Below are positions 28,566 to 49,276 of a stretch of DNA of 64,000 nucleotides, in pieces. Numbering within the stretch: the stretch's first letter is position 1; each line of letters opens with the position of its first letter. A model generated the notes under the pieces. It was not told the DNA's origin. It ran no database searches and worked only from the letters and a program-made list of their open reading frames with translations. The translations under genes and the position numbers were made by a program. Source of the DNA: a candidate division WOR-3 bacterium (GTDB taxonomy: Bacteria; Hydrothermota; Hydrothermia; Hydrothermales; JAJRUZ01); assembly GCA_039804025.1 (NCBI GenBank), contig JBDRZP010000007.1, positions 2,719-66,718 of the forward strand. The letters run 5' to 3'.

Positions 28566-28648
28566 GAATTTTTGCGCACCCTAAAGGGTGCGGCTACCAT
28601 AAAATTATAGAATATGGGAATAAATGTTAAAAATTTTCAAAAATGGTA
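28566..28648 (-). repeat. inverted partial copy (hairpin-2 plus AT-rich body) of the structured intergenic repeat family found in tandem at 44448-44752
   Basis: 83 nt matching the reverse complement of 44670-44752 with 1-2 mismatches (gaatttttgcgcaccctaaagggtgcggctaccataaaattatagaatatgggaataaatgttaaa...). Confidence 0.75.
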
Positions 28649-28689
28649 ATTAATGAATAACTTTAATAGATTTTTATACTTTGAAAGTA

Positions 28690-29166
28690 TTATCTAATGA
28701 ATTTTAGAAAGGTAAAAAATATTATAGTCATAACACCTATCTGTCCTACCCAGAATATAAACATCCATTTTATTATGTTCGCATAAGTTTTTGAAATTTT
28801 TTCATTAAATTCAACTCTTAATTTTGAAATCTCCTCAGTAATTCTTTTATCAATTTTTGCAGTTTCCTCAGTTATCCTTTTATCAAGTCTTGCACTTTCT
28901 TCAGTTATCCTTTTATCAAGTCTTGCGATATCTTCAGATTTTAATTTGTTAATCTCTTCAGTTATCCTTTTATCAAGTCTTGAGATATCTTCGGCTCTTA
29001 ATTTATTAATCTCTTCAGTTAATCTCCTTTCATATTTTTCAGTCTGTAGCTCAATTAAATCAATTTTCAGTTTTTCATTAGAGGCATTTAAAAGCTCAAT
29101 TAATGCATCAACCCCATCTTCCCCAAGCTTCTCCCTTAAAACCTTTGGAATAGTTATTATTTTCAT
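28690..29166 (-). CDS. tail-anchored coiled-coil protein with RLDKRITEExxKL 11-aa repeats and C-terminal TM helix
   Basis: 158 aa; repeats encoded by 33-nt DNA tandem repeats; C-terminal KWMFIFWVGQIGVMTIIFFTFLKFI hydrophobic anchor. Confidence 0.5.
   Translation of the reverse strand: MKIITIPKVLREKLGEDGVDALIELLNASNEKLKIDLIELQTEKYERRLTEEINKLRAEDISRLDKRITEEINKLKSEDIARLDKRITEESARLDKRITEETAKIDKRITEEISKLRVEFNEKISKTYANIIKWMFIFWVGQIGVMTIIFFTFLKFIR
28835..29030. repeat. 5-6 tandem copies of a 33-nt unit (cagttatccttttatcaagtcttgc...) inside the 28690..29166 gene
   Basis: read directly. Confidence 0.8.
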
Positions 29167-29231
29167 AATTTAAATTATAAAGAAAAGATACGAAAAATTC
29201 AAATATTTAAATCTTCTTGATTTTAATTTTT

Positions 29232-29275
29232 CTATAAATATACCGTAAACCTTTTTAACTCCAAAAAAAACATCT
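29232..29275. repeat. copy 2 of the 44-nt conserved element, about 70 nt upstream (minus sense) of the start of 28690..29166
   Basis: ctataaatataccgTaaacctttttaactccaaaaAaaacatcttttt vs the 28432 copy. Confidence 0.6.
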
Positions 29276-29294
29276 TTTTCTATATTGTCGCAAT

Positions 29295-30929: not shown

Positions 30930-31522
30930 TTTATAGATAAAATAAAAATTATAAAAATTGGAACAAATAAGGAAAGTAAAAAACCATTTATAATTGATAG
31001 CAAAAGATATTCTTTACCACCCCACTTTATTATAACAGGAAGAGTGGTATCAACTGTTGTAGCACCACCTGATGCAATTAAAGAGCTTTTACCAAAAATC
31101 CTTATAAGGAAAGGAGCAAAAATAATTGTTTCAATTTCTCTTAAAAGGTTAGTCATTAATGTTATAATCCCAAAAAACTCACCTTTTATTTCTGAAACAA
31201 GAATACTTGATAGACTGTAATAACCCATTCCTGACACAATGGTTATCCCCTCTTTTATTGGAAATCTAAATATTAAAAAAACAAAAAAAGAAAAGAAGAT
31301 TGTCCCCAGAAGTGAAATAAAGGGAAATAACAGATATTTAAAATTTATATTTTTAAAAATTTCTGAAACTCTTTTTTCACTACCAATTTGAATTCCAACA
31401 AAAAAAAGAAGAATATAAAGAACATAGGTTTTATAGTCAAACTTTTGCAATTCAGTAAATGAGAAAAATTTACCTGTTAAAATACCGAAAAGGAAGAAAA
31501 AAAAGAAAAAAATTGATGTCAC
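30926..31522 (-). CDS. membrane protein, possibly DUF340/LysO-like exporter subunit
   Basis: 198 aa, polytopic; ATGA-type overlap with the NhaC-like gene; weak family call. Confidence 0.3.
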   Translation of the reverse strand: MTSIFFFFFFLFGILTGKFFSFTELQKFDYKTYVLYILLFFVGIQIGSEKRVSEIFKNINFKYLLFPFISLLGTIFFSFFVFLIFRFPIKEGITIVSGMGYYSLSSILVSEIKGEFFGIITLMTNLLREIETIIFAPFLIRIFGKSSLIASGGATTVDTTLPVIIKWGGKEYLLLSIINGFLLSLFVPIFIIFILSIK

Positions 31523-31776
31523 TTTTTTAACAAAAAATATGTAAATAAAGAACTTCCTAAAATACCTGTAATAGAAAAAATTAAAGAATAATAAAAATTT
31601 TTATTCAAATTAGATAGGATTTTTTCATCAGAACCAACTGAATAACCTATTACAAAAAGAAAAACTGCAATAAGAATATATACAATAATTTCCGAGAATT
31701 TATTTAAAAAGGCAATTTTTTTTAATAAAAAACCTATAACTATACCAGTTAAAAAAAATATGAAAATATTTATCAT
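31519..31776 (-). CDS. small membrane protein (85 aa), probable partner of 30926..31522
   Basis: 3 hydrophobic helices; overlapping stop/start with flanking genes. Confidence 0.3.
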   Translation of the reverse strand: MINIFIFFLTGIVIGFLLKKIAFLNKFSEIIVYILIAVFLFVIGYSVGSDEKILSNLNKNFYYSLIFSITGILGSSLFTYFLLKK

Positions 31777-32252
31777 TAATTAAATATCTGAGAAATTACT
31801 TTACCAACAAAATGAGAAATGATAACAACTAAAGTTCCTATAATTAAATGCTCAGATACAACTTTAAGGGGGTTCTCAGACTGAATTCTGGAAAGAATAT
31901 AACTTATAACTGTAAGAACAAAGAATCCCCATAAAATATTAACAATAACTGCTAAATTTAATTTTAAAAACAAAACAGGCAAAATAAAAGTAGAAGCAAA
32001 TATAAATTTTGCTAAAAAGGTTGAAATTGTTGAAACCCATATTTCTTTTCCTGTATGAACATTCTCTGACTCCTCAGAAATATGAATTCCAAGAGCATCG
32101 GAAAAGGCATCTGCAATTGCAATTGTAAGAATACCTCCTATTACAGCAAGCCTTGAACTTGTACCTGAAAAAAGTCCTACCATAAGACCCATTGTTGTTA
32201 TTATTCCAGAGGTCATACCAAAGGCAAAACCCACTGTTATTGAATGCCTCAT
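31776..32252 (-). CDS. VIT1/CCC1-family-like (Fe/Mn transporter-like) short membrane protein
   Basis: TVGFAFGMTSGIITTMGLMVGL...AIADAFSDALGIHISEESE resembles the VIT1 N-terminal block (lGanDGlvtt..lv.G....aliAgalSMalGEYvSv). Confidence 0.4.
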   Translation of the reverse strand: MRHSITVGFAFGMTSGIITTMGLMVGLFSGTSSRLAVIGGILTIAIADAFSDALGIHISEESENVHTGKEIWVSTISTFLAKFIFASTFILPVLFLKLNLAVIVNILWGFFVLTVISYILSRIQSENPLKVVSEHLIIGTLVVIISHFVGKVISQIFN

Positions 32253-32258
32253 AGGCTT

Positions 32259-33569
32259 TTAATACAATTTTTTTACTTTCACAAAAGCCGATAAATAAGT
32301 AATTTTACTTGACCAGTCAGGTGAAGGAAAATTAACATTTGGGTCAGTTGGAGAACTATCCTGGGCATGAGTATTTTCTCCACCTGTTGTAAAAACTTCA
32401 ATAAAAATAGAATCAGGATTTGAAAGAAGAGAATCAGGTATTGAAAATTCTAAAAAATTACGAGAGGTGTAACCCTGCTCTCCACCTTTATTCAGAAGAT
32501 TTAAATATTGCCAGGAAGAACCTTTCCATCTGCATAATTGCGCTTCTTGAAGAATATCATTTTCAGGATGCCAGACATAAAGTATATATTTTGGATAAAA
32601 GGGATTTAAAGAATCACCTGCTGCAACCCTTCTATTCCATGGGTCAGAGAAAGCTCCTGATGGGGAAATTGAATTTGTAAAAATATATATTCCAAAAGCA
32701 AGACCGTAATTAGGTCCTGAATTAACATTAAAGCCTATAAACCACTTATCATCAATATGACAAGCCCATAAAGAGTCTAAATCAAGATTTGGCTCATTAA
32801 TATCATAAACAGGATCAAGACCTCTAAGATCCTGAGGTAAAAAATCATTTATTCCATCAATGATTATTGGATTCCTTACTGTACTCTTTTTCAAAACAAA
32901 GTTAATATTTTTTATTTCACTGTAATTTAAAAATAGAAAAAGAGTATCAGGAGAATAATTATTTGACATAGCAATTATTTTAAAAGAATCATCAATAAGA
33001 TCATTAAACTCAAAAGAATTATTCATGGAGTCTGTTGTAAAACTTCTTAAAAGGGTATCAGAATTCTTATAGTAAAGATAAACTTTTGAAACTGGATATG
33101 GAGCATTAATTATGTCTTCAAAATTAACCTTGCCCCTAATTGTTCCTGTACCTCTTATTTTTTTAATTCTGTAAAATAATGAATCCTCAAGTAATAAAAA
33201 TCTGTAAAAGCCATCCTCAGGTAAACTTGCTGATATATGTGTTCCCTCACCTGAAACAAGCTCAAGTTTTCCATAAAGTAAAGTATCTTCCCAGGAAGTT
33301 CCAAAGGAAGGATCCCATTTCTGGTCAGGAACAAATTTAAACATTATGTTTTTTTTATATTTAAATTTTTTAACTATTTCCCATCTATAGTCAGAAACAA
33401 GTTCCATAAAGGAATTTGGGTCACCTAAATTCCATCCTTGAAAATCTCCTGCAAGTTGCATTTTGCTGTAATTGGAGAGATAGTAATTACCTGGCAATTT
33501 AAAATAAGGATTTTCTCTTTTTTTACAGGATAAAAAAATTAATAAAATTATAAAAAAAAACTTTTTCAT
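32259..33569 (-). CDS. lipoprotein with N-terminal CBM48/E-set glycogen-binding-like domain
   Basis: signal peptide plus Cys lipobox (LIFLSCKK); QLAGDFQGWNLGDPNSFMELVSDYRWEIVKKFKYKKNIMFKFVPDQKWDP matches CBM48/AMPK-beta GBD pattern. Confidence 0.45.
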   Translation of the reverse strand: MKKFFFIILLIFLSCKKRENPYFKLPGNYYLSNYSKMQLAGDFQGWNLGDPNSFMELVSDYRWEIVKKFKYKKNIMFKFVPDQKWDPSFGTSWEDTLLYGKLELVSGEGTHISASLPEDGFYRFLLLEDSLFYRIKKIRGTGTIRGKVNFEDIINAPYPVSKVYLYYKNSDTLLRSFTTDSMNNSFEFNDLIDDSFKIIAMSNNYSPDTLFLFLNYSEIKNINFVLKKSTVRNPIIIDGINDFLPQDLRGLDPVYDINEPNLDLDSLWACHIDDKWFIGFNVNSGPNYGLAFGIYIFTNSISPSGAFSDPWNRRVAAGDSLNPFYPKYILYVWHPENDILQEAQLCRWKGSSWQYLNLLNKGGEQGYTSRNFLEFSIPDSLLSNPDSIFIEVFTTGGENTHAQDSSPTDPNVNFPSPDWSSKITYLSAFVKVKKLY

Positions 33570-34009
33570 TTTACCCTTAAAATTGAATTAACATAAGGAC
33601 CATTTTGAATCCTCTCAGGATTTGATGGATCAAGAATCCAGTTCACTCCATCAATTACATATTTATACTGATATACACCAGGTGGTAAAACTTTTATTAT
33701 AGTCCATATACCATCACCTTTTACTCTATCACCCTTTACACCATCATCGTTCATCCTATCAATATCCGGGTTATAAACACCATTTGCAGTTCCTCCCCAG
33801 GCATTAAAATCTCCTGCAAGTGTTACATATCTTGCAGAAGGAGCATAAACTTCAAAAATTACAAACTTTTGATTCTCTCTCTTTAAAACCCTTATTTCCT
33901 CAGGAACATCTTTTTCATCAATTATCCGTGGAGGTGGAACTCTGGGTCTTATAGAATTCCACAGTGAACAGGAAAAAATCATTAAAAAGAAAAGAAAGAA
34001 AAATTTCAT
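33566..34009 (-). CDS. secreted CBM48 (glycogen-binding) domain protein
   Basis: VTLAGDFNAWGGTANGVYNPDIDRMNDDG...GIWTIIKVLPPGVYQYKYVIDGVNWILDPSNPE is the classic CBM48 signature. Confidence 0.6.
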   Translation of the reverse strand: MKFFFLFFLMIFSCSLWNSIRPRVPPPRIIDEKDVPEEIRVLKRENQKFVIFEVYAPSARYVTLAGDFNAWGGTANGVYNPDIDRMNDDGVKGDRVKGDGIWTIIKVLPPGVYQYKYVIDGVNWILDPSNPERIQNGPYVNSILRVK

Positions 34010-34018
34010 AATTAATTA

Positions 34019-34825
34019 TTAAAAAAAATTTAAAGGATTTTCAATTTCAGGAATAATTATATCAAAACCTTTAAAACTTCCCTCTTTTACCCTATTCATA
34101 ATTTTTTTTACCATTAAACCATTCTTTTTTAAAAAATCAGTTATTCTATCACCCTCTTTAATTGATGCTTCAAAGGGATTATAAACTACGAAAAAAATAC
34201 TCCTCTTAAATTCAGGATAAAATTTCTTATATATGTTTAAATTTTCTTTAATCTTTTCATAAACTGGGTCCTTTTCAATTTTTTCACCCATAATTTTCCT
34301 CAATTCAATTATTTTTTTTCTCTGATGCAATAAAAAACTTAGAAGTTTTTTTCTCATAAGAATAAGAGAAACTATTCTTAAGGAAAGAGCTGTTGGAGGC
34401 ATATCAAAAATTACTCTATCGTAATTATCAGAGAATCCCTTAATAATAAGGTCAATCATACAATCTTCTTCTATACCTGGTAAATATCTAAAATTTTCTT
34501 TTAAAGAATCTTCAAATAAAGTAAAAAGAGGAGAAAATTTTTCAATTTTCCTTGATTCCTCAAATGCTTTTTTATCTATTAGTCTTTCTATATCAGGTTC
34601 ATATATAAAAATATTTTTAAACTCTTTAAATTCTTTTTTTTCTTTTAAACCGAGATAATCTGAAATGTTATGGGCAGGATCAAGAGAAAAAAGAAGAGTA
34701 TTCTTTCCAAAAAATTTTGAAAGGAGTATTGAAAGAGTTGTTTTTCCTGAACCACCTTTTCCAAGAAAGAAAAAAAATTTATGAGATATCAAAAAATCCG
34801 AATACTTCTGAAAAGGGGTCATCAT
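34019..34825 (-). CDS. ArsA/GET3-family P-loop ATPase (short form)
   Basis: P-loop FLGKGGSGKTT and the family-specific DPAHNISD motif. Confidence 0.55.
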   Translation of the reverse strand: MMTPFQKYSDFLISHKFFFFLGKGGSGKTTLSILLSKFFGKNTLLFSLDPAHNISDYLGLKEKKEFKEFKNIFIYEPDIERLIDKKAFEESRKIEKFSPLFTLFEDSLKENFRYLPGIEEDCMIDLIIKGFSDNYDRVIFDMPPTALSLRIVSLILMRKKLLSFLLHQRKKIIELRKIMGEKIEKDPVYEKIKENLNIYKKFYPEFKRSIFFVVYNPFEASIKEGDRITDFLKKNGLMVKKIMNRVKEGSFKGFDIIIPEIENPLNFF

Positions 34826-35012
34826 TAAAAAGAAAATTTTTATTTTTTATTTCCTCTACAAGATAAGGATAAATTTCAAGAAAAAAGGAAAAGGGTAGAA
34901 AAGGTGAAAGTCCAAGAAGCGGAGAAAAAGTAATCATTAAAAAAACTTTTTCTCTCTCGTATAACTCCTTTTTTATTTTAGAAAACAAAAATTTTTTAAA
35001 AGGATTTTTCAT
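34779..35012 (-). CDS. small hypothetical protein (77 aa) overlapping both neighbours
   Basis: ORF-track only; overlaps the ArsA-like start by 47 nt and cstA start by 17 nt; may be spurious. Confidence 0.15.
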   Translation of the reverse strand: MKNPFKKFLFSKIKKELYEREKVFLMITFSPLLGLSPFLPFSFFLEIYPYLVEEIKNKNFLFNDDPFSEVFGFFDIS

Positions 35013-36693
35013 TTAAAGACTTATAAAAATTAATAAATAAAATTGAATTTAAATAAAGCATCACTAAGATCATAATAGCAATAAGAATTTTTTGATATAA
35101 ATTCATAACATGTGAAGAAACAAAAGGAATAACATAAAATAAATACCATAGAAAAGCAAGAGTTACAGTTAACCAGAGAAAAAGGGAGGGCACAAGAATT
35201 AATAATTTAAGAGTGCCTTTTATTTTTAAAATTTTTATAACCCAGAGAGAAATAGTCAAAAGAGCTACAGAAGCTAAAAGCTGGTTTGCTCCACCAAAGG
35301 ATGGCCATAATAAAGACCATGAACCCTGTATCGCAAGAAAAAACCCTAAAAGAACAGGTATAGAGGAAAGGAGATACTTATTTTGTAATTTAGCAAAGAA
35401 AGTTTTTTTAAGTGTTATAGGCTCCATAAGCTCCTTTAAAATATACCTTGCAATTCTACCACAAGTATCGAGTGTCGTAGTTGCAAAAGATGAAACCCAT
35501 AAAGATGCAAAAATAAGTATAATTTTTTCAGAAACAAAATTAAAAGAAGAATTAACAGCTTTTGCGTAACTTTTTGCAAATATTCCTATTGGACCACCAA
35601 TTTTAACAATTTCTGAAAGATAATCCTTACCAACATTTATTTCACCAATTAAATTTAAACCAAAAAGACCTATTACAAGAACAACAACAGTTGCAAGCAT
35701 TCCCTCTGTAAACATAGAACCCGCACCGACAAAGAGACCTGATGTTTCTTTATCCAGCTGTTTACTTGAAGTTCCTGAACAAACAAGACAGTGAAATCCT
35801 GATAAAGAACCACATGCAATAATTAAAGGAATTGTGGGCCAGAAAGGAGAATTTCTTCCCTCTATAGCAGGTGGTGAAAAACTTGTAAAAAATGGAAAAT
35901 TTATTGATTTGAAACTCAAAAAAACTGAAATCATACCTATAAATAAACCAATCCATAGAAACCAGGCATTTATATAATCTCTTGGCTGAAGCAAAACCCA
36001 TACAGGAAGTGAGGAAGCAAAAATAACATAAAGAGAAAGAAAAATTAACCACATTTTATAAGGTAAATTGAGTGGGAAAAGAAAGGAAATATAAAATAAA
36101 AAGGGCATTAAAAAAAGACCTACTATAGTAACAATAACATAATTGCCCCTTAAAATTCTCAAAAGATAACCCAAAAACACCGCAAGTATAGTAAATAAAA
36201 GAAAGGCAGTTGCAACCTCTGGCTGTTTTGTAAATAAATTTGAAATGATTGAAGAAAAAGCTGCAAGAACTAAAATAAGAACAAAAAGAACAAAAAAATT
36301 AAAGAGAATCTGGGTTCTTTCACCCATAAGTTTTCCAGCTATCCATTGAATTGATTTACCCTCATATCTTACACTTGCCATAAGGGAAAGATAATCATGA
36401 ACTTTACCAATAAAAACATTACCTATCCAAATCCATAAAAGAGGAAGACCATACCCCCATATCATAGCTATAGCAGGTCCTACAATAGGCCCAACACCTG
36501 CAATGGAAGCAAAGTGATGTCCAAAAAGAATAAGTTTAGGAGTAGGCACATAATCTACATCATCTCTCAGTTTGATAGCAGGAGTTTTGCTTTCTGGATC
36601 TGCTTTCACCACTTTCTTTTCGAGTATTTTCCCATAGGTAAAATAAAAAAATAGATAAATAAATCCACCGGTTAATAAAAGTAAAGTTGCCAT
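34996..36693 (-). CDS. cstA: carbon starvation protein A (peptide/pyruvate transporter family)
   Basis: LFGHHFASIAGVGPIVGPAIAMIWGYGLPLLWIWIGNVFIGKVHDY matches the CstA N-terminal signature. Confidence 0.85.
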   Translation of the reverse strand: MATLLLLTGGFIYLFFYFTYGKILEKKVVKADPESKTPAIKLRDDVDYVPTPKLILFGHHFASIAGVGPIVGPAIAMIWGYGLPLLWIWIGNVFIGKVHDYLSLMASVRYEGKSIQWIAGKLMGERTQILFNFFVLFVLILVLAAFSSIISNLFTKQPEVATAFLLFTILAVFLGYLLRILRGNYVIVTIVGLFLMPFLFYISFLFPLNLPYKMWLIFLSLYVIFASSLPVWVLLQPRDYINAWFLWIGLFIGMISVFLSFKSINFPFFTSFSPPAIEGRNSPFWPTIPLIIACGSLSGFHCLVCSGTSSKQLDKETSGLFVGAGSMFTEGMLATVVVLVIGLFGLNLIGEINVGKDYLSEIVKIGGPIGIFAKSYAKAVNSSFNFVSEKIILIFASLWVSSFATTTLDTCGRIARYILKELMEPITLKKTFFAKLQNKYLLSSIPVLLGFFLAIQGSWSLLWPSFGGANQLLASVALLTISLWVIKILKIKGTLKLLILVPSLFLWLTVTLAFLWYLFYVIPFVSSHVMNLYQKILIAIMILVMLYLNSILFINFYKSLNEKSF

Positions 36694-36724
36694 TTTGAAT
36701 TATAAAATCTTTTCTTTTACTGGT

Positions 36725-38119
36725 TCAAAAATAAATAAGATAAAAAACAAGAAAAACAGCAAGAAAAAAATAAGTTACAAGGTCAAGAGTTTTAAGGGAA
36801 GGAGCACCTATAAAATAAAATAAACCTAAAATAACAAAGGTTATAGTTAAAAGAATATAAAAAAATATATTTACAAATCCAAGAAAGGGAAGTAAAAATA
36901 TTCCAATTGTAAAAAAAAGATAACCCAATTCTTTTTTTCTTTTCATCAAAAAGTATCTTGAAGTTCCATAAAAAAGAAAAAAAAGAAAAACAAAGAGAAA
37001 AAGAGATTTATCTACAAAATTTAAAAAATCTTTACCTGAGGAAGATGTATAGCCAAAGAGAAAAAGACCAGCAGATTCAACTGATATCTCAAGGGGTCTT
37101 ATTTTAAGGGTTTTGATAAAAGTTCTATTTAAAACATAAATTGAAAAAAGAATAAAGATAATAAAAAAGTGATAAAATGATAATAAAAGGGAAAAAATAA
37201 GAGAAATTGATAATGTAAAAGGGACATAATCTAAATTTTTTCTAAAAAGAAATTTGCTTAAAGAATAAAATATCACAGGAGTTAAAATAAAAAGGGGAAT
37301 AAATTTATTAAAAGGAAAATCAAAAAATTTTCCATGTTCTTCAAAAATTATCTTATAAGATGTCCAGAAACCCATAAAGGGTAAAAACAAATTTAAAAAA
37401 AGAAAATCATAATTTATAAATTTTCTCAATATATTTTCCTTATACTCTCTGAAAATTAGAAAAAATAAAAATAGAAGAAAAACAAAAAGAACTCCATATA
37501 AAATTGAAATTTTCTGAAGTTCAAAAGGGAAAACACCACCTTTCCAGAAATCCCTGTTATTGCCAGAGATTAAAATAGGGAAAATTAAAAGAAATATATA
37601 AGAAAAAATATTCAAAATAGTTAAAAAAATTATTTTATAAAATTTTTTACTGAAAGAGACAATATATAGAAAAGTAATAAAGCCCATAATGATAATTTCT
37701 ATCTTAATACCTATGGGTATATGAATCAGATCCTTTAAAGAAAAACTTATATAAACAAAATCAGAGCTTTTTCTAAAAGAGAATAAAAAATTTATAAAGG
37801 GAGTAAAAACAACAAAAGAAAAAGAAGAGGTATAAAAAGATAAAATTTTTTTAAGTCTTCTGTTTATTAAAAATTTAGTAAAAAGTAAATAAATAATTAA
37901 AAGCGTAGAATAAAAAAATATAAAATAAATAACAAATATAAAAAAATGGTACAGATTCTTCAAAAAAAATTTATTTGTATCTAAAATAATAGAGAAAAAA
38001 ATCTTTATTAAGATGATAGTTAGAAAATAAAAAAGAGAATATTTATAATCAGGAAATAAATTTTCTAAAAATTTTATTTTTTCCTTTAACTGAAAGGTAA
38101 AAGGGAGATTTTTCCACAT
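36725..38119 (-). CDS. large polytopic membrane protein, F-rich, unknown function
   Basis: 464 aa with more than 10 hydrophobic segments; overlaps tdh end by 34 nt. Confidence 0.35.
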   Translation of the reverse strand: MWKNLPFTFQLKEKIKFLENLFPDYKYSLFYFLTIILIKIFFSIILDTNKFFLKNLYHFFIFVIYFIFFYSTLLIIYLLFTKFLINRRLKKILSFYTSSFSFVVFTPFINFLFSFRKSSDFVYISFSLKDLIHIPIGIKIEIIIMGFITFLYIVSFSKKFYKIIFLTILNIFSYIFLLIFPILISGNNRDFWKGGVFPFELQKISILYGVLFVFLLFLFFLIFREYKENILRKFINYDFLFLNLFLPFMGFWTSYKIIFEEHGKFFDFPFNKFIPLFILTPVIFYSLSKFLFRKNLDYVPFTLSISLIFSLLLSFYHFFIIFILFSIYVLNRTFIKTLKIRPLEISVESAGLFLFGYTSSSGKDFLNFVDKSLFLFVFLFFLFYGTSRYFLMKRKKELGYLFFTIGIFLLPFLGFVNIFFYILLTITFVILGLFYFIGAPSLKTLDLVTYFFLAVFLVFYLIYF

Positions 38120-39117
38120 TCACCCTCCTCCATCAATTTCATGGCTTTATCTATTTCTTCCATTTTTAAGGTATGGGTTATAACTTTTTTAAGGTCAAGA
38201 CCTGATTCAAGAAGTTTATCAATTTTATACCATGTAGAAAAAATACCTCTTCCAGTTATTCCGTAAATTCTTATATTTTTTAGAATTACTAAATTATTCA
38301 AATCTATATTTACTTTTCCTTCAAAAATTCCAAGAAAAGAAGCTCTTCCACAAGGTGAAAGACACTTTAGCCCCTCTTCAAGAGCTTTCTGGTTTCCTGA
38401 CATTTCTATGAGAACTTCAACACCTTCACCTTTTGTTTTTTCCATAATAATTTCATAAACATTTTCCTTTAAGGGATTTATAACATAATCAGCACCGAGT
38501 TCTTTTGCTTTTTTTATTCTGTATTCTTTTACCTCTGTGATAAATACAGGATAGGCACCTGAATGCTTTGCAACAAGTATAGCCATCATTCCCAGAGGCC
38601 CTGCACCAGTTATTAAAAGACTTTTACCTGAGACATCCTCTGCCAAAACTGTATCCACTGCATTACCAAAGGGTTCTTTCAAGGAAAGCACTTCTTCGGG
38701 CAAATTAATTTCATTTTTCCACAGATTAAAAGCAGGAACTTTAACATATTCAGCATAAGCACCATCTACATCTACTCCGAGAATCTTTGTGTTATAACAA
38801 ACCCTATAATTACCCTTTTTGCATGCAGGACAGTTATTACAAACAAAGTGAGATTCAACCGAAACTATATCCCCTATTTTAAAATTTTTTACATCCTTTC
38901 CCATTTCAACTATTTCACCTGCTACCTCATGACCTATAATTTTGGGAATTTCAAATTTTTTACTTATCCATTCATCCCATCTATATATATGTAAATCTGT
39001 TCCACATATGGAGCATCTTTTTACTTTTAATATAACCTCATCTCTTCCAGGAACAGGTTCTTTAACATCTTTTATCTCAAAACCTCTTCCTTCTTTAGTT
39101 TTAATAATGGCTTTCAT
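38086..39117 (-). CDS. tdh: L-threonine 3-dehydrogenase (zinc-dependent MDR family)
   Basis: CSICGTDLHIYRWDEW...GHEVAGEIVEMG plus GAGPLGMMAI Rossmann; close to E. coli Tdh layout. Confidence 0.85.
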   Translation of the reverse strand: MKAIIKTKEGRGFEIKDVKEPVPGRDEVILKVKRCSICGTDLHIYRWDEWISKKFEIPKIIGHEVAGEIVEMGKDVKNFKIGDIVSVESHFVCNNCPACKKGNYRVCYNTKILGVDVDGAYAEYVKVPAFNLWKNEINLPEEVLSLKEPFGNAVDTVLAEDVSGKSLLITGAGPLGMMAILVAKHSGAYPVFITEVKEYRIKKAKELGADYVINPLKENVYEIIMEKTKGEGVEVLIEMSGNQKALEEGLKCLSPCGRASFLGIFEGKVNIDLNNLVILKNIRIYGITGRGIFSTWYKIDKLLESGLDLKKVITHTLKMEEIDKAMKLMEEGECGKISLLPFS

Positions 39118-39164
39118 TTTTTCCCTCCTTAAGTTAAATTTATTTTTAAAAATTTAAGCAAAAA

Positions 39165-40583
39165 TTAAGGAGCAACACTTGTTACAGCCCAGTTTGAAAA
39201 ATCAACTAATATTTTCGGAAAAACTCCAAAAAATAAAATACCTGCAATACATATTATCATTGAAAGTTTAAGATTAAATGGCATATTCGTTTTAAATTCT
39301 ATATCCGAATCTTCAATATAAAGTTTTTTTGCAACCATAAGATAGTAATAAAGAGCTACAATTGTGAGTATTGCTCCCCATAAAGCAAGATACCATAGTC
39401 CAGCATGAACACCAGCAAGAAACACATAAAGTTTTGCCCAGAAACCTGCAACTGGTGGAATTCCACCAAGAGATAGAAGTATTATAAGCATTGAAAGGGA
39501 TAGTATAGGGGCTTTTTGGGAAAGACCTTTAAGATTCTCAATTTCAGTTTTATTAATTGTATTTCTAACAGTTTCAACAAAAAGAAAAGCTCCCATATTG
39601 GAAAAGAGATAGGTAAACAAATAAAAAATTACCATACCAAGTCCTTCTTTTGTTCCACTGGCTACTCCCACAAGTATATATCCTATATGGGCAATACTTG
39701 AATAGGCAAGCAACCTTTTAAGATTTTTTTGTGGAAGAGCAAGAAGGTTTCCAATAAACATTGAGAAAAAGGAAAGAAGGATGATTAAAAGTAAAATATC
39801 ACTTCTATCTGAAGGTAAAACTTCAAAAATAATTCTGAAAATAGCAGCAAAGCCAGCTGCTTTTGGGGCAACTGCTAAAAAGGCAACATAAGGTTCAGGA
39901 GCTCCATGGTATGTATCTGGAAGCCAGGAGTGGAAAGGGAAACTTGCTATTTTAAAACCCAAACCTGCAATTAAGAAAACTATTCCAGCAGCAAAAAGTG
40001 GCGTAAAATCGCTTAAAAAGGATTTAATTTTTATAAATTCAAGAAAACCTGAAGCTCCATAGATAAAGGAGATCCCAAAAAACATTATTGCAGCAGAAAA
40101 AGCACCTACAAGAAAAAACTTAAGACCAACCTCTGGTGCCAATTCATCATATTTCCTTATAGCAGATAAAACATAAAGGGGAATACTCATCAATTCAAAA
40201 GCAACAAAAAATAAAAGAAAGTTTTTGGAAGAAACTAAGATACTCATTCCAAGAACTGAAGTTAAAATAAGTAAATAATACTCAGCCTTCCTTTTTGGAA
40301 GTTCATTTTCAACATAATGAATGCTTCCGAGGATTCCAATAAATGCAGCAGAAAAGAACAAAAGCTTAAAAGCATAGGAGAATTCATCAAAATAAAAATC
40401 TCCATAATAATTTCCAACAAAATTTTTAAAGAAAATAAACAGCAAGAGTCCGAAAAGAAGTAAAATAGAATTTAAGTAACCTATTATTTTACCTTTTCCC
40501 TTTTCAGGAATAATAAAATCTAAAACAAAAGTTAAAACCATCAGAAAAATAATATAAAATTCAATTAAAGCTACTTTTAACAT
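39165..40583 (-). CDS. nuoN: NADH-quinone oxidoreductase subunit N (antiporter-like)
   Basis: 472 aa, 14 TM, NuoN/ND2 family pattern; immediately follows nuoM. Confidence 0.8.
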   Translation of the reverse strand: MLKVALIEFYIIFLMVLTFVLDFIIPEKGKGKIIGYLNSILLLFGLLLFIFFKNFVGNYYGDFYFDEFSYAFKLLFFSAAFIGILGSIHYVENELPKRKAEYYLLILTSVLGMSILVSSKNFLLFFVAFELMSIPLYVLSAIRKYDELAPEVGLKFFLVGAFSAAIMFFGISFIYGASGFLEFIKIKSFLSDFTPLFAAGIVFLIAGLGFKIASFPFHSWLPDTYHGAPEPYVAFLAVAPKAAGFAAIFRIIFEVLPSDRSDILLLIILLSFFSMFIGNLLALPQKNLKRLLAYSSIAHIGYILVGVASGTKEGLGMVIFYLFTYLFSNMGAFLFVETVRNTINKTEIENLKGLSQKAPILSLSMLIILLSLGGIPPVAGFWAKLYVFLAGVHAGLWYLALWGAILTIVALYYYLMVAKKLYIEDSDIEFKTNMPFNLKLSMIICIAGILFFGVFPKILVDFSNWAVTSVAP

Positions 40584-40584
40584 T

Positions 40585-42144
40585 TTACCCTCCTATGTTA
40601 AATTTTGATAAAAATTCAATAACACTTGCATCAATAAACTTAACAAGGAGGAAAGGAAACATTCCAAAAATTATAAGTGTAAAGGAAAGTATATAGAGGC
40701 TTACCCACTCAGGTCCCTTTGCATCAGAAAGATCATGCCATGCTTTTTCATCAAAGGGACCATAAAAGACAATTTTTAAAAATCTTAAAACATACACAGC
40801 AGTTATAAATGTCCCTGTTATTGCTGCCAAAAACCAGGGAAAGTGTCCTGATTTTACAGCTCCTATAAAAACAAGAACTTCGGCAACAAATCCTGAAAGT
40901 CCTGGTAAACCCAGAGATGTTAATCCTGCAATTGTAAAAGCAGTTGCAATTCCCGGCATTTTTTTACCAAATCCACCCATTTTTAATATATCTCTTGTAT
41001 GAGATTTCTCATATACAAGCCCAACAAGAGCAAATAAAAGACCTGTCATTATACCATGGGAAAACATTTGAAAAACAGCACCATTTACTCCCCATTCATG
41101 AAGAGTTGCAAGACCCAGCATAACATACCCCATATGTGAAACTGAGGAATAAGCTACAATGTATTTTAAATCAAATTGATTCATAGCTGAAAGAGCACCG
41201 TAAACAATATTTATACATGCAATTAATCCTACAAGAAAGGAAAAATCAGAAGCACCCTGAGGGAAAAGTCCCCATCCCCATCTCATTGCACCATAAGCTC
41301 CCAATTTCATCAAAACTCCTGCATGAAGCATTGAAACAGCAGTTGGGGCAGCAGCATGTCCATCAGGAGACCAGGTATGAAGTGGAAAAACACCAGCAAG
41401 AACACCAAAACCAACATAAAAAGTTAAAAATAGAATTCTCTGTAATTCTAAAGGATAATATTTTGTGCTTAATTCTGTATAAGAAAATGTATTTCCACCC
41501 TGAAAATAAAGCACAAGCATTCCAACCAAAATAAAAGCAGAACCAAGAAGCAAGTATAGGGTAAGCTTTGCTGCTGCATATTCCTTTGTTCCAAGTGTAA
41601 CATTTCTCATCGCCGTATCAATAGGTCTCATTATATACTGGATTAAGTTATTGGGTGGAATTTTTGGTTTTAAATCTGCACCTGATCCCCATATTCCTAT
41701 TAAAAGATACATTGGAAGAACTGCAATTTCATAAAAAAGAAAGAATATAAAGAAATCAAGGGATGCAAATACTCCAAAAACTCCTGTTACAAGAACAAAA
41801 AGGAGAATGTAAAATTCCTGGGATCTAAAAGGGATTGTCCAGGAAGCAAAAGTTCCAGTGAATATTATTAAGCCTGTTAAAAGTAATAGAGAAAGAGAAA
41901 TTCCATCTGCACCAAGATAATAAGAAATTCCAAGGGTTTTAACAAGAGGAATGTGTTCAATAAACTGGAATCCCCCTTTTTTAAAATCATATAAAAAAAA
42001 CAAAAGTATAGAGAAAAATAGGGAGATTCCTGAAAAAATACTTGCTGTAATTCTTACGAGGAGGGGTTTCCTCCTCATAAATAGCATTAAAAATGCTCCT
42101 ACAAATGGTGAAAAAACAATTATTGATAAAAATGGGAATTTCAT
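40585..42144 (-). CDS. nuoM: NADH-quinone oxidoreductase subunit M (antiporter-like)
   Basis: 519 aa, LGADGISLSLLLLTGLI and HAAAPTAVSMLHAGVLMKLGAYG blocks of NuoM/ND4/MnhD family. Confidence 0.8.
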   Translation of the reverse strand: MKFPFLSIIVFSPFVGAFLMLFMRRKPLLVRITASIFSGISLFFSILLFFLYDFKKGGFQFIEHIPLVKTLGISYYLGADGISLSLLLLTGLIIFTGTFASWTIPFRSQEFYILLFVLVTGVFGVFASLDFFIFFLFYEIAVLPMYLLIGIWGSGADLKPKIPPNNLIQYIMRPIDTAMRNVTLGTKEYAAAKLTLYLLLGSAFILVGMLVLYFQGGNTFSYTELSTKYYPLELQRILFLTFYVGFGVLAGVFPLHTWSPDGHAAAPTAVSMLHAGVLMKLGAYGAMRWGWGLFPQGASDFSFLVGLIACINIVYGALSAMNQFDLKYIVAYSSVSHMGYVMLGLATLHEWGVNGAVFQMFSHGIMTGLLFALVGLVYEKSHTRDILKMGGFGKKMPGIATAFTIAGLTSLGLPGLSGFVAEVLVFIGAVKSGHFPWFLAAITGTFITAVYVLRFLKIVFYGPFDEKAWHDLSDAKGPEWVSLYILSFTLIIFGMFPFLLVKFIDASVIEFLSKFNIGG

Positions 42145-42167
42145 TATTTTTTATAAATTTAAATGTT

Positions 42168-42180
42168 GGATTTGAACCCC
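42168..42180 (-). promoter_or_regulatory. upstream stem-loop motif (minus-strand GGGGTTCAAATCC), 23 nt upstream of the nuoM start
   Basis: read directly. Confidence 0.45.
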
Positions 42181-42255
42181 TTTAATTATAAAATAATTTT
42201 TTTTTAAAATCAAAAAAAATTTGTATGAAAAATTGAGAGTTTAATAAAATTAAAA

Positions 42256-43848
42256 ATGAACAGAAAACTATACTTTAAATTATTTATTATCCACTTTCTA
42301 ACAAATTTCTTATTCCTGTTGAACTATGATGGTGTTTACTGGGATGATTACGCATTATACAACCAGAACTTTAAAACAATTTATGAAATGTTTAAAGATC
42401 ATTCCGGTTACCTATCACTATATTTTTCTTATTTACATTTTATACTTTTAAAAGCCGGAATTTTTATTTATCGGATTTTAGTTTTCCTTTTATATTTCTT
42501 TAATACAATTTTTTTATATGAAATTCTAAAAAAATTAAACTTTCTTTCTGAAAATGAAAAACTCTCAATAACACTTTTATTTATGCTTTCACCCCTTTGT
42601 TTTGCAAAAATTTCCCTGATGCATTTTACATATGTCTTTAATTTACCAATCTTTTATTTTGCCTTTTTCCTTTTAAGCATTTATATCGAGAGTCCCTCCT
42701 TTCTAAAACGAATTATAATACTAATACTCTTTTTCATATCATTTACAACTAACTCATTGCTTGTTTTTTATCTTCTTCCAATAGCTTATTTATTCTATTT
42801 AAATTATAACTCTAAAACTTCCTTCACTTTTAACTTCTTGAAATTCTTAAAAAATAATATTGATTTTTTAATTTTACCATTAATATATTGGTTTCTTAGA
42901 TTAACTTATTTCAAACCGAGTGGTTTATATGAAGGTTATAATGCAATAAATATTAATTTAAGAACTCCCTTTTATATTCTTATTTCTCTTTTTACAAATT
43001 TAATTGAACCTCTTGACTTATCTTTTAGTCACTCTTTTTCCCTATGGTATATTACTATTTTCCTGATTTTAATTTTTTATTTTTTATTTGATGAACAATT
43101 TGAAAAATCAGAAAATAATGAAGATAAGTTATTAAATTTAAAATTTTTGATGGGCATCATAATTTTTTTAATTAGTGTTTTACCTTATATATTAGTCCAG
43201 AAAATTCCCTCTCTATGGGACTGGGATTCAAGACATCAGCTATTACTTCCGCTTGGATTCAGTTTTATAGTTTATTTCGGCTCAAAAATTCTTTTAACTA
43301 AATTCCTAAAATTGAAATTTAATAATTTTATTTTATATTTCTTTTTATCATCTTTCTTAATTGAAAATTTAATAGCAAATTTCAAATACCATATTGACTT
43401 TTTTTACCAGCTAAGTATTATAGAAAATATGAAAAAAAACGAATCAATAAAAAATAATTACACTTTTGTTGTTAAAACAGAACTAAAGGACAAATTAGCC
43501 TTTAACAGATGGTTCAGATCTTACGAATTAAACGGGATGTCAAAAATTGCTTTTGGTATTGACAACAAATTATTTATTCCTGAGAATATAGATTTAAATT
43601 CAGATTTTAACTTTTATAAACCTTACAAACAGTATAATTTCTCAAACTGGGATCCAGGTTCCTTTCAAAATAAGAAATATATCGTGATAAAGGAAAACCC
43701 TGATACTCCCTTTTTTAATTTTGATAAAAAATTCTTTATACTCTTTCCTTATTTAAAATACTATTTAAAACTTAACTTTTATAAAATATTTAAACCCACT
43801 TATTTCAAAAGAGAAATATCAAAACTTGTAATAATAGAGGCTTTATAG
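42256..43848 (+). CDS. polytopic membrane protein (N-terminal ~11 TM + C-terminal soluble region), possibly a GT39/ArnT-like glycosyltransferase
   Basis: architecture only; no catalytic motif confirmed. Confidence 0.35.
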   Translation: MNRKLYFKLFIIHFLTNFLFLLNYDGVYWDDYALYNQNFKTIYEMFKDHSGYLSLYFSYLHFILLKAGIFIYRILVFLLYFFNTIFLYEILKKLNFLSENEKLSITLLFMLSPLCFAKISLMHFTYVFNLPIFYFAFFLLSIYIESPSFLKRIIILILFFISFTTNSLLVFYLLPIAYLFYLNYNSKTSFTFNFLKFLKNNIDFLILPLIYWFLRLTYFKPSGLYEGYNAININLRTPFYILISLFTNLIEPLDLSFSHSFSLWYITIFLILIFYFLFDEQFEKSENNEDKLLNLKFLMGIIIFLISVLPYILVQKIPSLWDWDSRHQLLLPLGFSFIVYFGSKILLTKFLKLKFNNFILYFFLSSFLIENLIANFKYHIDFFYQLSIIENMKKNESIKNNYTFVVKTELKDKLAFNRWFRSYELNGMSKIAFGIDNKLFIPENIDLNSDFNFYKPYKQYNFSNWDPGSFQNKKYIVIKENPDTPFFNFDKKFFILFPYLKYYLKLNFYKIFKPTYFKREISKLVIIEAL

Positions 43849-43871
43849 AAAAAGGATACTCTATGAATTCT

Positions 43872-44327
43872 TTAAACTTTTTTTATTATTTTATATATAT
43901 TTCCGAGACAACAGGAACCTTGCGGGTTTCTTAAATCGCAAGCACACTGTTTTAGCTTTATTCCTGTATTTATATCCTCAATAATTTCTTTTTCTCTCTT
44001 TTCCTTTACCATAGAAAGAATTTCACCGAGAGTATGATTAAAACAGTAACAAACAGGAACAAAAGGGTTTTCTGGCTCTTTTTGATAAACAGGGACTTTT
44101 ACATCTTCGGTTTTAAATACATCATCAGAAGAATTATAATAAACGATAGGACAATTTTCAGTTTCACAGAAAAAATAAGATTCTGAAGGAAATATTCTTC
44201 TCAAAGAGACTTTCAAAAGGGACTTTAAAGTTTTTAGATTCACCTTTTTACCAGGTTTTCCACAGAAAGGACAATTAGTATTTTCTTTTATTATGTCACC
44301 TTTCTCACATTGAATGCACTTATCCAT
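43872..44327 (-). CDS. Cys-rich putative metal-binding protein with N-terminal zinc-ribbon (CxxC...CxxC)
   Basis: CIQC...CPFC, CETENC, CYC, CAC, CC clusters in 151 aa. Confidence 0.4.
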   Translation of the reverse strand: MDKCIQCEKGDIIKENTNCPFCGKPGKKVNLKTLKSLLKVSLRRIFPSESYFFCETENCPIVYYNSSDDVFKTEDVKVPVYQKEPENPFVPVCYCFNHTLGEILSMVKEKREKEIIEDINTGIKLKQCACDLRNPQGSCCLGNIYKIIKKV

Positions 44328-44447
44328 TTTTAAATTATATTGAATAAGGATAAATAATTTAAAATTATTTTATGATACCGAAAGAATTTAAATTGACATG
44401 TTATAATTTGGAAGAAATAGAGAAAAAACACGATGAGATAGTAAAAA

Positions 44448-44752
44448 TTCGCAGGCTAAAGCCTGCACCTACCATTTTTTTGAAAATCTTTAACATTTAT
44501 TCCCATATTATATAATTTTAGGGTAGCCGCACCCTTCAGGGTGCGTTAAATTAATTCTCTGGTTGTATTTCGCAGGCTAAAGCCTGCGCCTACATTTTTT
44601 TGAATTTTTTTAACATTTATAACCCTAATTTTATTATAAAATCTTGAGATTTATTCTGAAGGCTAAAGCCTGCTCCTACCATTTTTTGAAAATCTTTAAC
44701 ATTTATTCCCATATTCTATAATTTTATGGTAGCCGCACCCTTTAGGGTGCGC
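44448..44752 (+). repeat. three tandem copies (one partial) of a ~100-nt structured intergenic element: hairpin GCAGGCTAAAGCCTGC, CCTACC...GGTAGC long-range pair around an AT-rich body, hairpin CGCACCCTTTAGGGTGCG
   Basis: copies at about 44448-44545, 44569-44657 (lacks hairpin 2), 44659-44752; inverted partial copy at 28566-28648. Confidence 0.8.
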
Positions 44753-44862
44753 AAAAATTCGTTAAGATTAAAATATGAAAAAAAGTGTAAAAAATAATTA
44801 TAGAGAAGAAAAATTAAGGGAGATTGCTATAAAATTTTTTGACATAATTTGAATTATAAATT

Positions 44863-48229: not shown

Positions 48230-48232
48230 TGA

Positions 48233-49261: not shown

Positions 49262-49276
49262 ATTATTTTCTCCTTT

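What the first reader, a model, noticed from the sequence alone, without database searches (positions are those of the whole stretch)
44448..44752. Structured ~100-nt intergenic repeat family (MITE/REP-like or small-RNA gene family), three tandem copies plus an inverted partial copy at 28566-28648
Each unit has a perfect hairpin GCAGGC-TAAA-GCCTGC and a long-range pairing CCTACC...GGTAGC enclosing a conserved AT-rich body (atttttttgaaaatctttaacatttattcccatatt.tataatttta). It ends with a second hairpin CGCACCC-TTTA-GGGTGCG. The middle copy lacks hairpin 2. The bodies are homologous to each other, so this is not a CRISPR array. An 83-nt inverted copy 16 kb away (1-2 mismatches) shows the element is dispersed. 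Candidate explanations are a miniature mobile element, REP-type genome punctuation, or a cis/trans small RNA. Each body contains a good TATAAT.
Basis: seen in the sequence. Interest (0 to 1): 0.6.

Follow-up and report, generated by a model that had tools for sequence, protein, structure and literature searches.

The report
REP hairpin cluster flanking an inversion
The repeats are a small cluster of REP elements (short GC-rich hairpins tagged with GTAG, the kind spread by RayT transposase-like enzymes) in an AT-rich uncultured WOR-3 bacterium, and a 166-base piece of the cluster copied in reverse 16 kb away marks the ends of a segment that is flipped in a nearly identical strain.

Summary
First, the two "different" hairpins are one motif in opposite orientations: GTAG-NN-GCA(GG/CC)C-TTYA-G(CC/GG)TGC. 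It occurs six times in the window against 0 expected. Second, the inverted copy is about 166 nt long (28483-28648 versus 44677-44842), not 83 nt.

The motif has the architecture of GTAG-tagged REP elements. Its stem changes are almost always compensatory (181 of 183 contexts). It lies mostly between unidirectional or convergent genes. In 6 of 6 independent loci it brackets a Y1-transposase gene that sources name RayT.

The locus is therefore a BIME-like REP cluster in a candidate division WOR-3 genome (29% GC). It is not a small-RNA gene family and not a classical MITE. The AT-rich "body" is a spacer. In one relative at 95% identity its middle is replaced, and the small ORF beside it is absent.

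In a 99.9%-identical assembly the 16-kb segment between the two 166-nt arms is inverted, with the crossover inside their 65-nt identical core. No recombinase gene is nearby.

This is a new member of a known kind. Copy number and a RayT gene in this genome could not be tested.

The parts
44450..44472 (-). REP hairpin 'H1', unit 1. On the minus strand it reads GTAGGTGCAGGCTTTAGCCTGCG: GTAG tag, 1-2 unpaired nt, 6-7-bp stem, 4-nt loop.
   Evidence: Motif search. The fold gives the same stem. On the minus strand it is terminator-like (followed by AATTTTT).
44473..44522 (.). AT-rich 'body' A. This is the 50-nt spacer between two REPs whose GTAG tags face inward.
   Evidence: It holds promoter-like hexamers (TTGAAA-18-CATATT and TATAAT), which are not significant in 29% GC DNA.
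44523..44545 (+). REP hairpin 'H2', unit 1: GTAGCCGCACCCTTCAGGGTGCG.
   Evidence: The same variant occurs three times in the metagenome and viral sample.
44523..44593 (.). REPIN-like inverted heterodimer with GTAG tags outside: H2(+), a 25-27-nt spacer, then H1(-). This composite recurs in many unrelated metagenomic loci and, with an identical spacer, in the 95%-identical relative L178.
   Evidence: L027, L062, L073, L079, L088, L126, L133, L134, L139, L166 and the window..
44571..44593 (-). REP hairpin 'H1', unit 2: GTAGGCGCAGGCTTTAGCCTGCG on the minus strand.
44594..44657 (.). Body B. This is a diverged copy of the body (about 75% identity). Hairpin 2 is missing here, but the 22 nt upstream of the next H1 still align with the heterodimer spacer.
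   Evidence: (D11).
44658..44679 (-). REP hairpin 'H1', unit 3, decayed: GTAGGAGCAGGCTTTAGCCTTC, with one stem mismatch.
44680..44728 (.). Body C, a 49-nt spacer. It is identical to the spacer in relative L180.
44729..44751 (+). REP hairpin 'H2', unit 3: GTAGCCGCACCCTTTAGGGTGCG.
   Evidence: This exact 23-mer occurs in 16 of the 183 unique metagenomic and viral contexts.
44677..44842 (+). Right arm of the 166-nt inverted repeat: body C, H2, and about 90 nt of flank that includes a 25-codon ORF.
   Evidence: (I1, I2).
28483..28648 (-). Left arm of the 166-nt inverted repeat. It has no H1. Its H2 lies at 28575-28597(-). The arm sits between the 158-aa gene and the LVIVD-repeat gene.
28649..44676 (.). 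The 16-kb segment between the arms, running from the 158-aa gene and the Na/H antiporter to nuoN/nuoM, the 530-aa gene and the zf_CopZ gene. It is inverted in assembly GCA_965648955.1.
   Evidence: Synteny in the Hydrothermales relative shows the window orientation is ancestral.

Best explanation
The feature is a BIME-like cluster of GTAG-tagged REP elements in a candidate division WOR-3 bacterium.

Each hairpin has a GTAG tag, one or two unpaired bases, a 6-7-bp GC stem (GCAGGC or GCACCC) and a TTYA loop. This is the recognition architecture of RayT/TnpA-REP, an HUH Y1 transposase-like enzyme. In E. coli that enzyme binds the folded REP on single-stranded DNA and cleaves and rejoins beside it. 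That activity is established for E. coli and is only inferred here.

Five hairpins alternate in orientation downstream of malQ. The roughly 121-nt unit was amplified in tandem, and one hairpin was later lost (inferred).

A 166-nt piece (spacer, hairpin 2 and flank) also lies inverted 16 kb away. Homologous recombination within the 65-nt identical core of these two arms inverted the intervening 16 kb in a sister strain. The junction is shown; the mechanism is inferred.

The likely local effects are those usual for REPs: stable stem-loops in the malQ 3' region and recombination substrates. These effects were not tested.
For: **The motif in the window**
- Six copies of GTAGNNGCASSCTTYAGSSTGC against 0 expected. 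No other GTAG hairpin of this type occurs in the window.
- Its features match the published definition of GTAG REPs (PMC3733652). These are the GTAG tail, unpaired dinucleotide, 6-9-bp stems, short loops, inverted dimers with 20-100-bp spacers, heterodimers with different stems, and clusters.

**The same 23-mer elsewhere**
- It occurs in 37 viral-contig stretches and at least 120 metagenome stretches.
- Positions left free in the search pattern are nevertheless conserved: GTAG[C/T]C...G.
- The two free stem pairs are complementary in 181 of 183 unique contexts, against 25% expected by chance.
- Of the hits with a gene predicted on both sides, 72 lie between unidirectional genes, 24 between convergent genes, 8 between divergent genes, and 36 inside predicted ORFs.

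**Link to RayT**
- Y1_Tnp (PF01797) genes are bracketed by this exact hairpin in L137, L061, L172/173, L175, L176/177 and L182.
- Homologues are named 'REP element-mobilizing transposase RayT' by their sources.

**Comparison with relatives**
- The heterodimer H2(+)...H1(-) recurs in at least 10 unrelated loci.
- The cluster is present downstream of malQ in the 95%-identical relatives but differs in composition. It is absent from the syntenic 22 kb of a Hydrothermales relative.

**The inversion**
- L009 is 99.9% identical to the window. It joins 44677+ to 28483+ through a hybrid repeat copy.
Against: - Only six hairpins at two loci are seen in 64 kb, and none in the other roughly 10-20 kb of the related loci. 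High copy number, a classical REP hallmark, is therefore not shown.
- No RayT gene lies in the window, and I could not search the rest of the genome. The hairpins may be orphans.
- The three H1 copies carry GTAGG[T/C/A] instead of the usual GTAGCC, and one is decayed.
- The 166-nt duplicated arm includes about 90 nt that is not REP-like. Its origin is unexplained.
- The inversion rests on one junction in one short-read MAG. The reciprocal junction could not be recovered. An assembler mis-join across a 65-nt identical repeat is possible.
Confidence: 0.8

Rival explanations
1. [quoted passage not shown] On this reading the roughly 100-nt unit (H1, body, H2) is a non-autonomous transposon with about 26-bp terminal inverted repeats, moved by a DDE transposase.
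For: The unit ends are inverted repeats matching at 19 of 26 positions (D6). The unit is repeated and a partial copy lies 16 kb away.
Against: - There are no target-site duplications at the unit ends. The 9-mer AAAAATTCG flanks the whole array, not single units.
- The 'TIRs' are GTAG hairpins that occur alone, or as tags-outside dimers, in hundreds of unrelated contexts.
- Tags-inside dimers like this unit are rare in the wider family: 2 against 24 tags-outside pairs, 7 of which are a single hairpin matched on both strands.
- The distant copy lacks the left end and carries extra flank.
- The body pattern was not found in any collection.
Confidence: 0.07
2. A promoter or small-RNA cassette. On this reading the AT-rich body is a sigma-70-type promoter (TATAAT). 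It fires into hairpin 2, which forms a protective 5' stem-loop on a small RNA or on the mRNA of the 25-codon ORF. The tandem copies would be paralogous genes.
For: - TATAAT lies 6 nt upstream of the GTAG of hairpin 2 in units 1 and 3 and in the 28.5-kb copy.
- TTGAAA-18-CATATT matches were found.
- In many phage contigs the hairpin sits 5-20 nt upstream of a ribosome-binding site and start codon.
Against: - Promoter-like matches are not above the shuffled expectation at 28.5 kb (4 against 4.8) and only modestly above it at 44.5 kb.
- There is no Rfam family and no terminator after hairpin 2.
- The 44.7-kb copy points into the 3' end of the convergent malQ gene.
- The two ORF copies differ by substitutions that all change amino acids. 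The roughly 83-nt ORF segment is absent in L178 and L180, and the middle of the body is replaced in L178.
- Family-wide, only 18 of 183 contexts have a ribosome-binding site and start codon within 60 nt.
Confidence: 0.08
3. A programmed invertible switch. On this reading the 166-nt inverted repeats are sites for a site-specific invertase that flips the 16-kb segment to change gene expression.
For: Both orientations exist in 99.9%-identical genomes, with a clean junction inside the repeat.
Against: - No recombinase or invertase domain is found in or next to the segment (Pfam annotations; Y1 scan).
- The arms are long and imperfect, and the crossover lies anywhere within a 65-nt identical stretch. 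This is typical of homologous recombination.
- Inversion leaves both outward-facing arm halves attached to the same outside genes.
Confidence: 0.05

Closest known systems
GTAG-tagged REP elements, and REPINs or BIMEs associated with RAYT/TnpA-REP (Nunvar 2010 PMC2817692; Di Nocera 2013 PMC3733652; Bertels 2017 PMC5581495)
   Same: - A GTAG tag, unpaired dinucleotide, 6-7-bp GC stem and short loop.
- Compensatory stem variants.
- Inverted heterodimers with conserved spacers, and clusters with alternating orientation.
- Location between unidirectional or convergent genes.
- The identical hairpin brackets RayT genes elsewhere (REPtron arrangement).
   Different: - The host is a 29%-GC candidate division WOR-3 genome, and copy density appears low (two loci in 64 kb).
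- No RayT was seen in the available sequence.
- The same 23-mer is shared by genomes labelled Nitrospirae and Desulfobaccales. It also flanks RayT genes in unlabelled contigs of 36-63% GC, and a RayT homologue is labelled Ca. Scalindua. It is present in phage genomes too. Classical REP families are species- or genus-specific.
- The cluster here also contains tags-inside dimers with a 50-nt AT-rich spacer, which is rare in this family.
E. coli BIME clusters in the mal operons
   Same: Tandem arrays of REPs in alternating orientation with fixed linker types, downstream of a sugar-metabolism gene (here malQ). They have the potential to form stable 3' stem-loops.
   Different: There is no sequence similarity. 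No IHF-type site is recognisable in the spacer. Function at the RNA or DNA level is untested.
Repeat-mediated chromosomal inversions (between IS copies, rRNA operons or REPs)
   Same: The inverted repeats flank the inverted segment, and the hybrid junction shows a crossover inside the identical core.
   Different: The arms are only 166 nt and consist of a REP hairpin, its spacer and a flank, rather than an IS or an rRNA operon.
PeSL promoter/stem-loop cassettes of T4-type phages (recalled from memory, not checked)
   Same: A short AT-rich promoter-like stretch next to a stem-loop, repeated between genes and acting as a recombination substrate.
   Different: There is no evidence of promoter activity here. 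The hairpin carries the GTAG tag and is tied to RayT genes.

Membership tests
GTAG-type REP (RAYT-associated) | An unpaired GTAG (GTRG) tetranucleotide at one end of the palindrome | tested here: met
   6 of 6 hairpins carry it.
GTAG-type REP (RAYT-associated) | A short GC-rich stem-loop (stem 6-13 bp, short loop) kept intact by compensatory changes | tested here: met
   Stems of 6-7 bp and loop TTYA. The GG/CC swap between H1 and H2 is compensatory. Family-wide, 181 of 183 contexts are complementary.
GTAG-type REP (RAYT-associated) | Extragenic position, mainly between unidirectional or convergent genes | tested here: met
   Both window loci lie between co-directional minus-strand genes. Family-wide counts are 72 unidirectional, 24 convergent and 8 divergent.
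GTAG-type REP (RAYT-associated) | Inverted dimers (REPIN) and clusters with alternating orientation (BIME) | tested here: met
   Orientation runs -,+,-,-,+ in the cluster. The heterodimer at 44523-44593 matches recurrent heterodimers elsewhere.
GTAG-type REP (RAYT-associated) | Many copies per genome (tens to hundreds) | not testable with these tools
   Only 64 kb, plus about 40 kb of related loci, could be read. This gave six copies at two loci. The short-read contigs of relatives break in the cluster, but that can be explained by the local copies alone.
GTAG-type REP (RAYT-associated) | A cognate RAYT (Y1_Tnp) gene bracketed by the same REP | tested here: inconclusive
   Met in 6 of 6 other genomes that carry the identical hairpin.
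MITE | Target-site duplications flanking each unit, and dispersed full-length copies | tested here: not met
   Unit ends show no direct repeats. The only dispersed copy lacks the left end. The body pattern is absent from all collections.
Described structured RNA family (Rfam) | A match to a curated covariance model | tested here: not met
   There were 0 matches at gathering score in the window. Only chance-level matches (E of at least 0.15) were found at the locus.
Site-specific invertible element (invertase switch) | A recombinase gene within or next to the invertible segment | tested here: not met
   Pfam annotation of the segment genes and their neighbours shows none. Three genes (530, 464 and 436 aa) have no Pfam match at all.
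CRISPR array | Identical repeats separated by unique spacers of similar length | tested here: not met
   The 'spacers' (bodies) are homologous to each other and the hairpins alternate in orientation.

The most novel reading that the evidence does not exclude
A single REP-RayT pair with an essentially invariant 23-nt hairpin has spread horizontally across several phyla: Nitrospirota, Desulfobacterota, Planctomycetota (Scalindua) and WOR-3. It also sits inside genuine phage genomes, so phages may carry REPs between hosts. In the WOR-3 genome the hairpins could be orphan imports that now act mainly as a hotspot for structural change, including tandem amplification, hairpin loss and a 16-kb inversion. 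This would run against the usual picture of REP/RAYT systems as vertically inherited and lineage-specific.
Probability: 0.3. Interest if true: 0.6.

Novelty: new member of a known kind. Interest (0 to 1): 0.4.

Why it matters
REPs have been studied mostly in Proteobacteria. This finding places a typical GTAG REP cluster in an AT-rich, uncultured WOR-3 lineage. The same hairpin, with its RayT, is shared by distant phyla and by phages. That gives a concrete system for testing how REP/RAYT pairs move between genomes.

Locally, the result explains three things: why short-read assemblies of these MAGs break downstream of malQ, why close relatives differ there, and why a 16-kb block appears in two orientations. 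It also removes a candidate small-RNA or MITE family from the list of unknowns.

Tried and rejected
**Searches that found nothing useful**
- Rfam at gathering score for the whole window, and at E up to 10 for the locus and for a phage cluster. Nothing meaningful was found.
- The body 20-mer in genome contigs. It gave seven single hits, and the two inspected (both Omnitrophota) were chance matches inside unrelated sequence.
- A degenerate 30-mer for the body in metagenome and viral contigs. There were 0 hits.
- BLAST of a hairpin dimer against cultured phages and plasmids. Only chance-level hits were returned.
- A literal search of the paper library for the hairpin sequence and for the accession numbers. 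There were 0 papers.

**Look-ups that failed or fell short**
- RayT relatives in viral contigs. None were found.
- Recovery of the reciprocal inversion junction. The LVIVD and 530-aa proteins are not on record, and NuoM is only on short contigs.
- A WOR-3 RayT, sought by choosing the most AT-biased homologues. I found Ca. Scalindua and an unlabelled 36%-GC REPtron (L182), but none labelled WOR-3.

**Ideas considered and dropped**
- GC skew to date the inversion. It only tracks the coding strand. Synteny with a Hydrothermales relative settled the polarity instead.
- Integron attC sites: no RYYYAAC/GTTRRRY ends and no cassettes.
- CRISPR or solitary CRISPR repeats: the stem resembles type I-C repeats only superficially.
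- An IHF site in the spacer: no WATCAANNNNTTR match.
- N4-type hairpin promoters: no support.

Full report
**1. The observation**

The interval 44448-44752 lies in a 535-bp gap between two minus-strand genes. These are malQ (44863-46356, GH77) and a 151-aa zf_CopZ gene (43872-44327). Three tandem units are present, with start-to-start spacings of 121 and 86 nt (D6).

- Hairpin 1 (GCAGGC-TAAA-GCCTGC) is perfect in units 1 and 2 and has one mismatch in unit 3.
- Hairpin 2 (CCGCACCC-TTTA-GGGTGCG) is present in units 1 (loop TTCA) and 3, and absent from unit 2.
- All motifs are far above chance, with 0.00-0.14 expected per window.

The inverted copy near 28.6 kb is real but longer than reported. 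The arms are 28483-28648 and 44677-44842, about 166 nt. This copy lacks hairpin 1. It continues past hairpin 2 through about 90 nt that includes a 24/25-codon ORF.

**2. The two hairpins are one motif**

The repeat finder aligned the reverse complement of hairpin 2 to hairpin 1 (D6). A single pattern, GTAG-NN-GCA-SS-C-TTYA-G-SS-TGC, hits six times against 0 expected:

- 44451-72(-)
- 44523-44(+)
- 44572-93(-)
- 44658-79(-), with one mismatch
- 44729-50(+)
- 28576-97(-)

The GG-to-CC difference between the stems is compensated on the other arm. A generic scan for GTAG plus a GC hairpin finds nothing else of this type in the 64 kb, which is 29.3% GC.

**3. The motif matches the published definition of GTAG REPs**

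Di Nocera et al. (PMC3733652) define GTAG REPs by these features:

- a terminal unpaired GTAG;
- stems mostly 6-9 bp and short loops;
- subfamilies with complementary stem changes;
- in families GTAG-1 and GTAG-2, an unpaired dinucleotide between tag and stem;
- frequent inverted dimers with 20-100-bp spacers, often heterodimers, and clusters.

All of these apply here. The piece 44523-44593 is an 'HH' heterodimer (tags outside) with a 25-27-nt spacer.

**4. The same hairpin is widespread and tied to RayT**

*Distribution.* The pattern gave 37 stretches in IMG/VR. The metagenome loci range from 30% to 70% GC.

*Conservation.* Positions left free in the pattern are conserved (GTAG[C/T]C, then a trailing G). 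The two free stem pairs are complementary in 181 of 183 unique contexts, against 25% expected by chance.

*Position.* Among hits with a predicted gene on both sides, 72 lie between unidirectional genes, 24 between convergent genes and 8 between divergent genes. A further 36 fall inside predicted ORFs, and 52 were too close to a contig end to classify.

*Dimers.* Tags-outside pairs dominate (24, of which 7 are a single hairpin matched on both strands). The heterodimer GCACCC(+)...GCAGGC(-) recurs in at least 10 unrelated loci.

*RayT.* A scan of all ORFs found two Y1-transposase-like proteins next to hairpins. Pfam confirmed Y1_Tnp, at E 8.6e-11 and 1.1e-6. In L137 the gene (176-673) is bracketed by the exact hairpin at 140(+) and 690(-).

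The L137 protein has 553 homologues, and the sources that name them mostly call them 'REP element-mobilizing transposase RayT'. I fetched four more. These were Nitrospirae GCA_001803815.1, Desulfobaccales GCA_054635535.1, GCA_040961615.1 and the 36%-GC contig L182. Every gene is bracketed by GTAGCCGCAGGCTTTAGCCTGCG. One cluster member is labelled Ca. Scalindua sediminis. This is the REPtron arrangement that defines RAYT-REP pairs (PMC2817692, PMC5581495).

*Absences.* The hairpin is absent from cultured phages and plasmids, from Rfam and, as a literal string, from the paper library.

**5. The organism and its relatives**

The exact MalQ, NuoM and GlgB proteins are labelled candidate division WOR-3 bacterium.

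Two lineages at about 95% identity also have a REP cluster downstream of malQ, but it is built differently.

- L178/L179 reads [H2-8 nt-H1], 38 nt, [H2-25 nt-H1], then a body whose middle 20 nt is replaced by about 110 nt, then H2.
- L180 reads [H2-8 nt-H1], then an identical 49-nt body, then an H2 with a 12-nt internal deletion (GTAG|GGTGCG).
- Neither has the roughly 83-nt small-ORF segment. Both carry next to malQ a homologue of window 28357-28493.

A more distant Hydrothermales genome (33.8% GC) has glgB-malQ-nuoM-nuoN-ADH...VIT1-Na/H antiporter, all co-directional. Its malQ-nuoM gap is only 101 nt, and it has no such hairpin in 22 kb.

The hairpins are therefore lineage-specific additions at a structurally unstable site. 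The body and the small ORF are not conserved functional units. The two ORF copies differ only by amino-acid-changing substitutions.

**6. The inversion**

A MalQ look-up returned L009 (GCA_965648955.1), which is 99.9% identical to the window. L009 1-11679 equals window 56356-44677, and L009 11515-21494 equals window 28483-38463. The two overlap in one repeat copy.

That copy is a hybrid. It has 28.5-kb-type variants on the body side and 44.7-kb-type variants on the ORF side. The switch lies inside the 65-nt stretch where the arms are identical.

L010 (GCA_039804005.1) supports the window arrangement. Hydrothermales synteny shows the window orientation is ancestral. No recombinase is encoded in or beside the segment.

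The simplest reading is homologous recombination between the inverted arms. There are two caveats. Only one junction in one short-read MAG supports the inversion, and the reciprocal junction was not recoverable.

**7. Mechanism: what is shown and what is inferred**

Shown:
- the motif architecture, its orientation pattern and its stem covariation;
- identity to a RayT-bracketing hairpin family;
- turnover of the cluster between close relatives;
- the hybrid inversion junction.

Inferred from established work on E. coli TnpA-REP (PMC3479197, PMC8266576):
- the hairpins were seeded by a RayT acting on folded single-stranded DNA;
- tandem amplification and hairpin loss arose by recombination or slippage;
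- the inversion arose by homologous exchange.

Not tested:
- copy number and a RayT gene in this genome;
- transcription;
- any effect on malQ or on the downstream genes.

**8. Rivals**

- A classical MITE fails on target-site duplications and on dispersed full-length copies.
- A promoter or small-RNA cassette has only AT-rich hexamer matches in its favour. Against it are the lack of conservation, the convergent malQ, and the absence of both a terminator and an Rfam match.
- A programmed invertase switch lacks a recombinase.

**9. Verdict**

The locus is a REP/BIME-type cluster, so it is a new member of a known kind. Two side results are worth noting. One REP-RayT pair appears to span several phyla and real phage genomes: L022 has TerL at 8.7e-90 and a portal protein, with a hairpin cluster between the terS-like gene and terL. 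And the cluster marks an inversion breakpoint. Bertels et al. (PMC5581495) already describe RAYT groups 1 and 4 as widely distributed with low-copy flanking repeats. The breadth of this family is therefore notable rather than unprecedented.

Noticed in passing
window 28649-44676; L009 11515-11679: The 16-kb block from the 158-aa gene to the zf_CopZ gene is inverted in a 99.9%-identical assembly (GCA_965648955.1). The junction is a hybrid copy of the 166-nt repeat. Synteny in a Hydrothermales relative shows the window orientation is ancestral.
   Followed up: yes
L022 2320-2490; L027 389-410 and 1373-1425; L031 8564 and 10161: The same GTAG hairpin sits in intergenic gaps of genuine phage genomes. 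L022 carries TerL, a portal protein and a terS-like gene, with a five-hairpin cluster between the terS-like gene and terL. The hairpin often lies 5-20 nt upstream of a ribosome-binding site.
   Followed up: partly
L137, L061, L172, L175, L176, L182: RayT (Y1_Tnp) genes from genomes labelled Nitrospirae and Desulfobaccales, and from unlabelled contigs of 36-63% GC, are all bracketed by the identical 23-mer GTAGCCGCAGGCTTTAGCCTGCG. A further homologue is labelled Ca. Scalindua sediminis. This is unusually broad for a single REP sequence.
   Followed up: partly
window 26161-28182 (-), repeats at 26470-27794: A 673-aa protein made of 11 LVIVD repeats (a 126-nt unit repeated 10.5 times, 89% matches) with a Por_Secre_tail (T9SS) sorting domain. 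It lies immediately downstream of the 28.5-kb repeat arm.
   Followed up: partly
window 25510-26067 (-), repeats at 25621-25986: A 185-aa protein with 17 copies of a 21-nt repeat (heptads such as MLNKQTE, coiled-coil-like). It has no confident Pfam family.
   Followed up: no
window 28357-28493 and 29209-29255; L178 11541-11684; L180 11541-11685: The roughly 135-nt stretch between the 28.5-kb arm and the LVIVD gene has a partial paralogue upstream of the 158-aa gene (47 nt, 81% identity). In the 95%-identical relatives it has a homologue next to malQ. It may be a second repeated module that takes part in rearrangements at this site.
   Followed up: partly
window 44786-44863 (+) and 28477-28551 (-): A duplicated 25/24-codon ORF (MKKSVKNNYR...) lies downstream of hairpin 2. 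All differences between the two copies change amino acids, and the whole segment is missing in relatives. It is probably not a gene.
   Followed up: yes
L180 11700-11715: In one relative hairpin 2 carries a clean 12-nt internal deletion (GTAG|GGTGCG). In unit 2 of the window hairpin 2 is missing altogether. The REP hairpins appear to be lost by precise small deletions.
   Followed up: no
window 46349-56894: A glycogen and starch gene cluster (glgB, malQ, GH57, GalT-like, glgA, glgC-like) lies next to a V/A-type ATPase A subunit. It is conserved in all the relatives examined.
   Followed up: no
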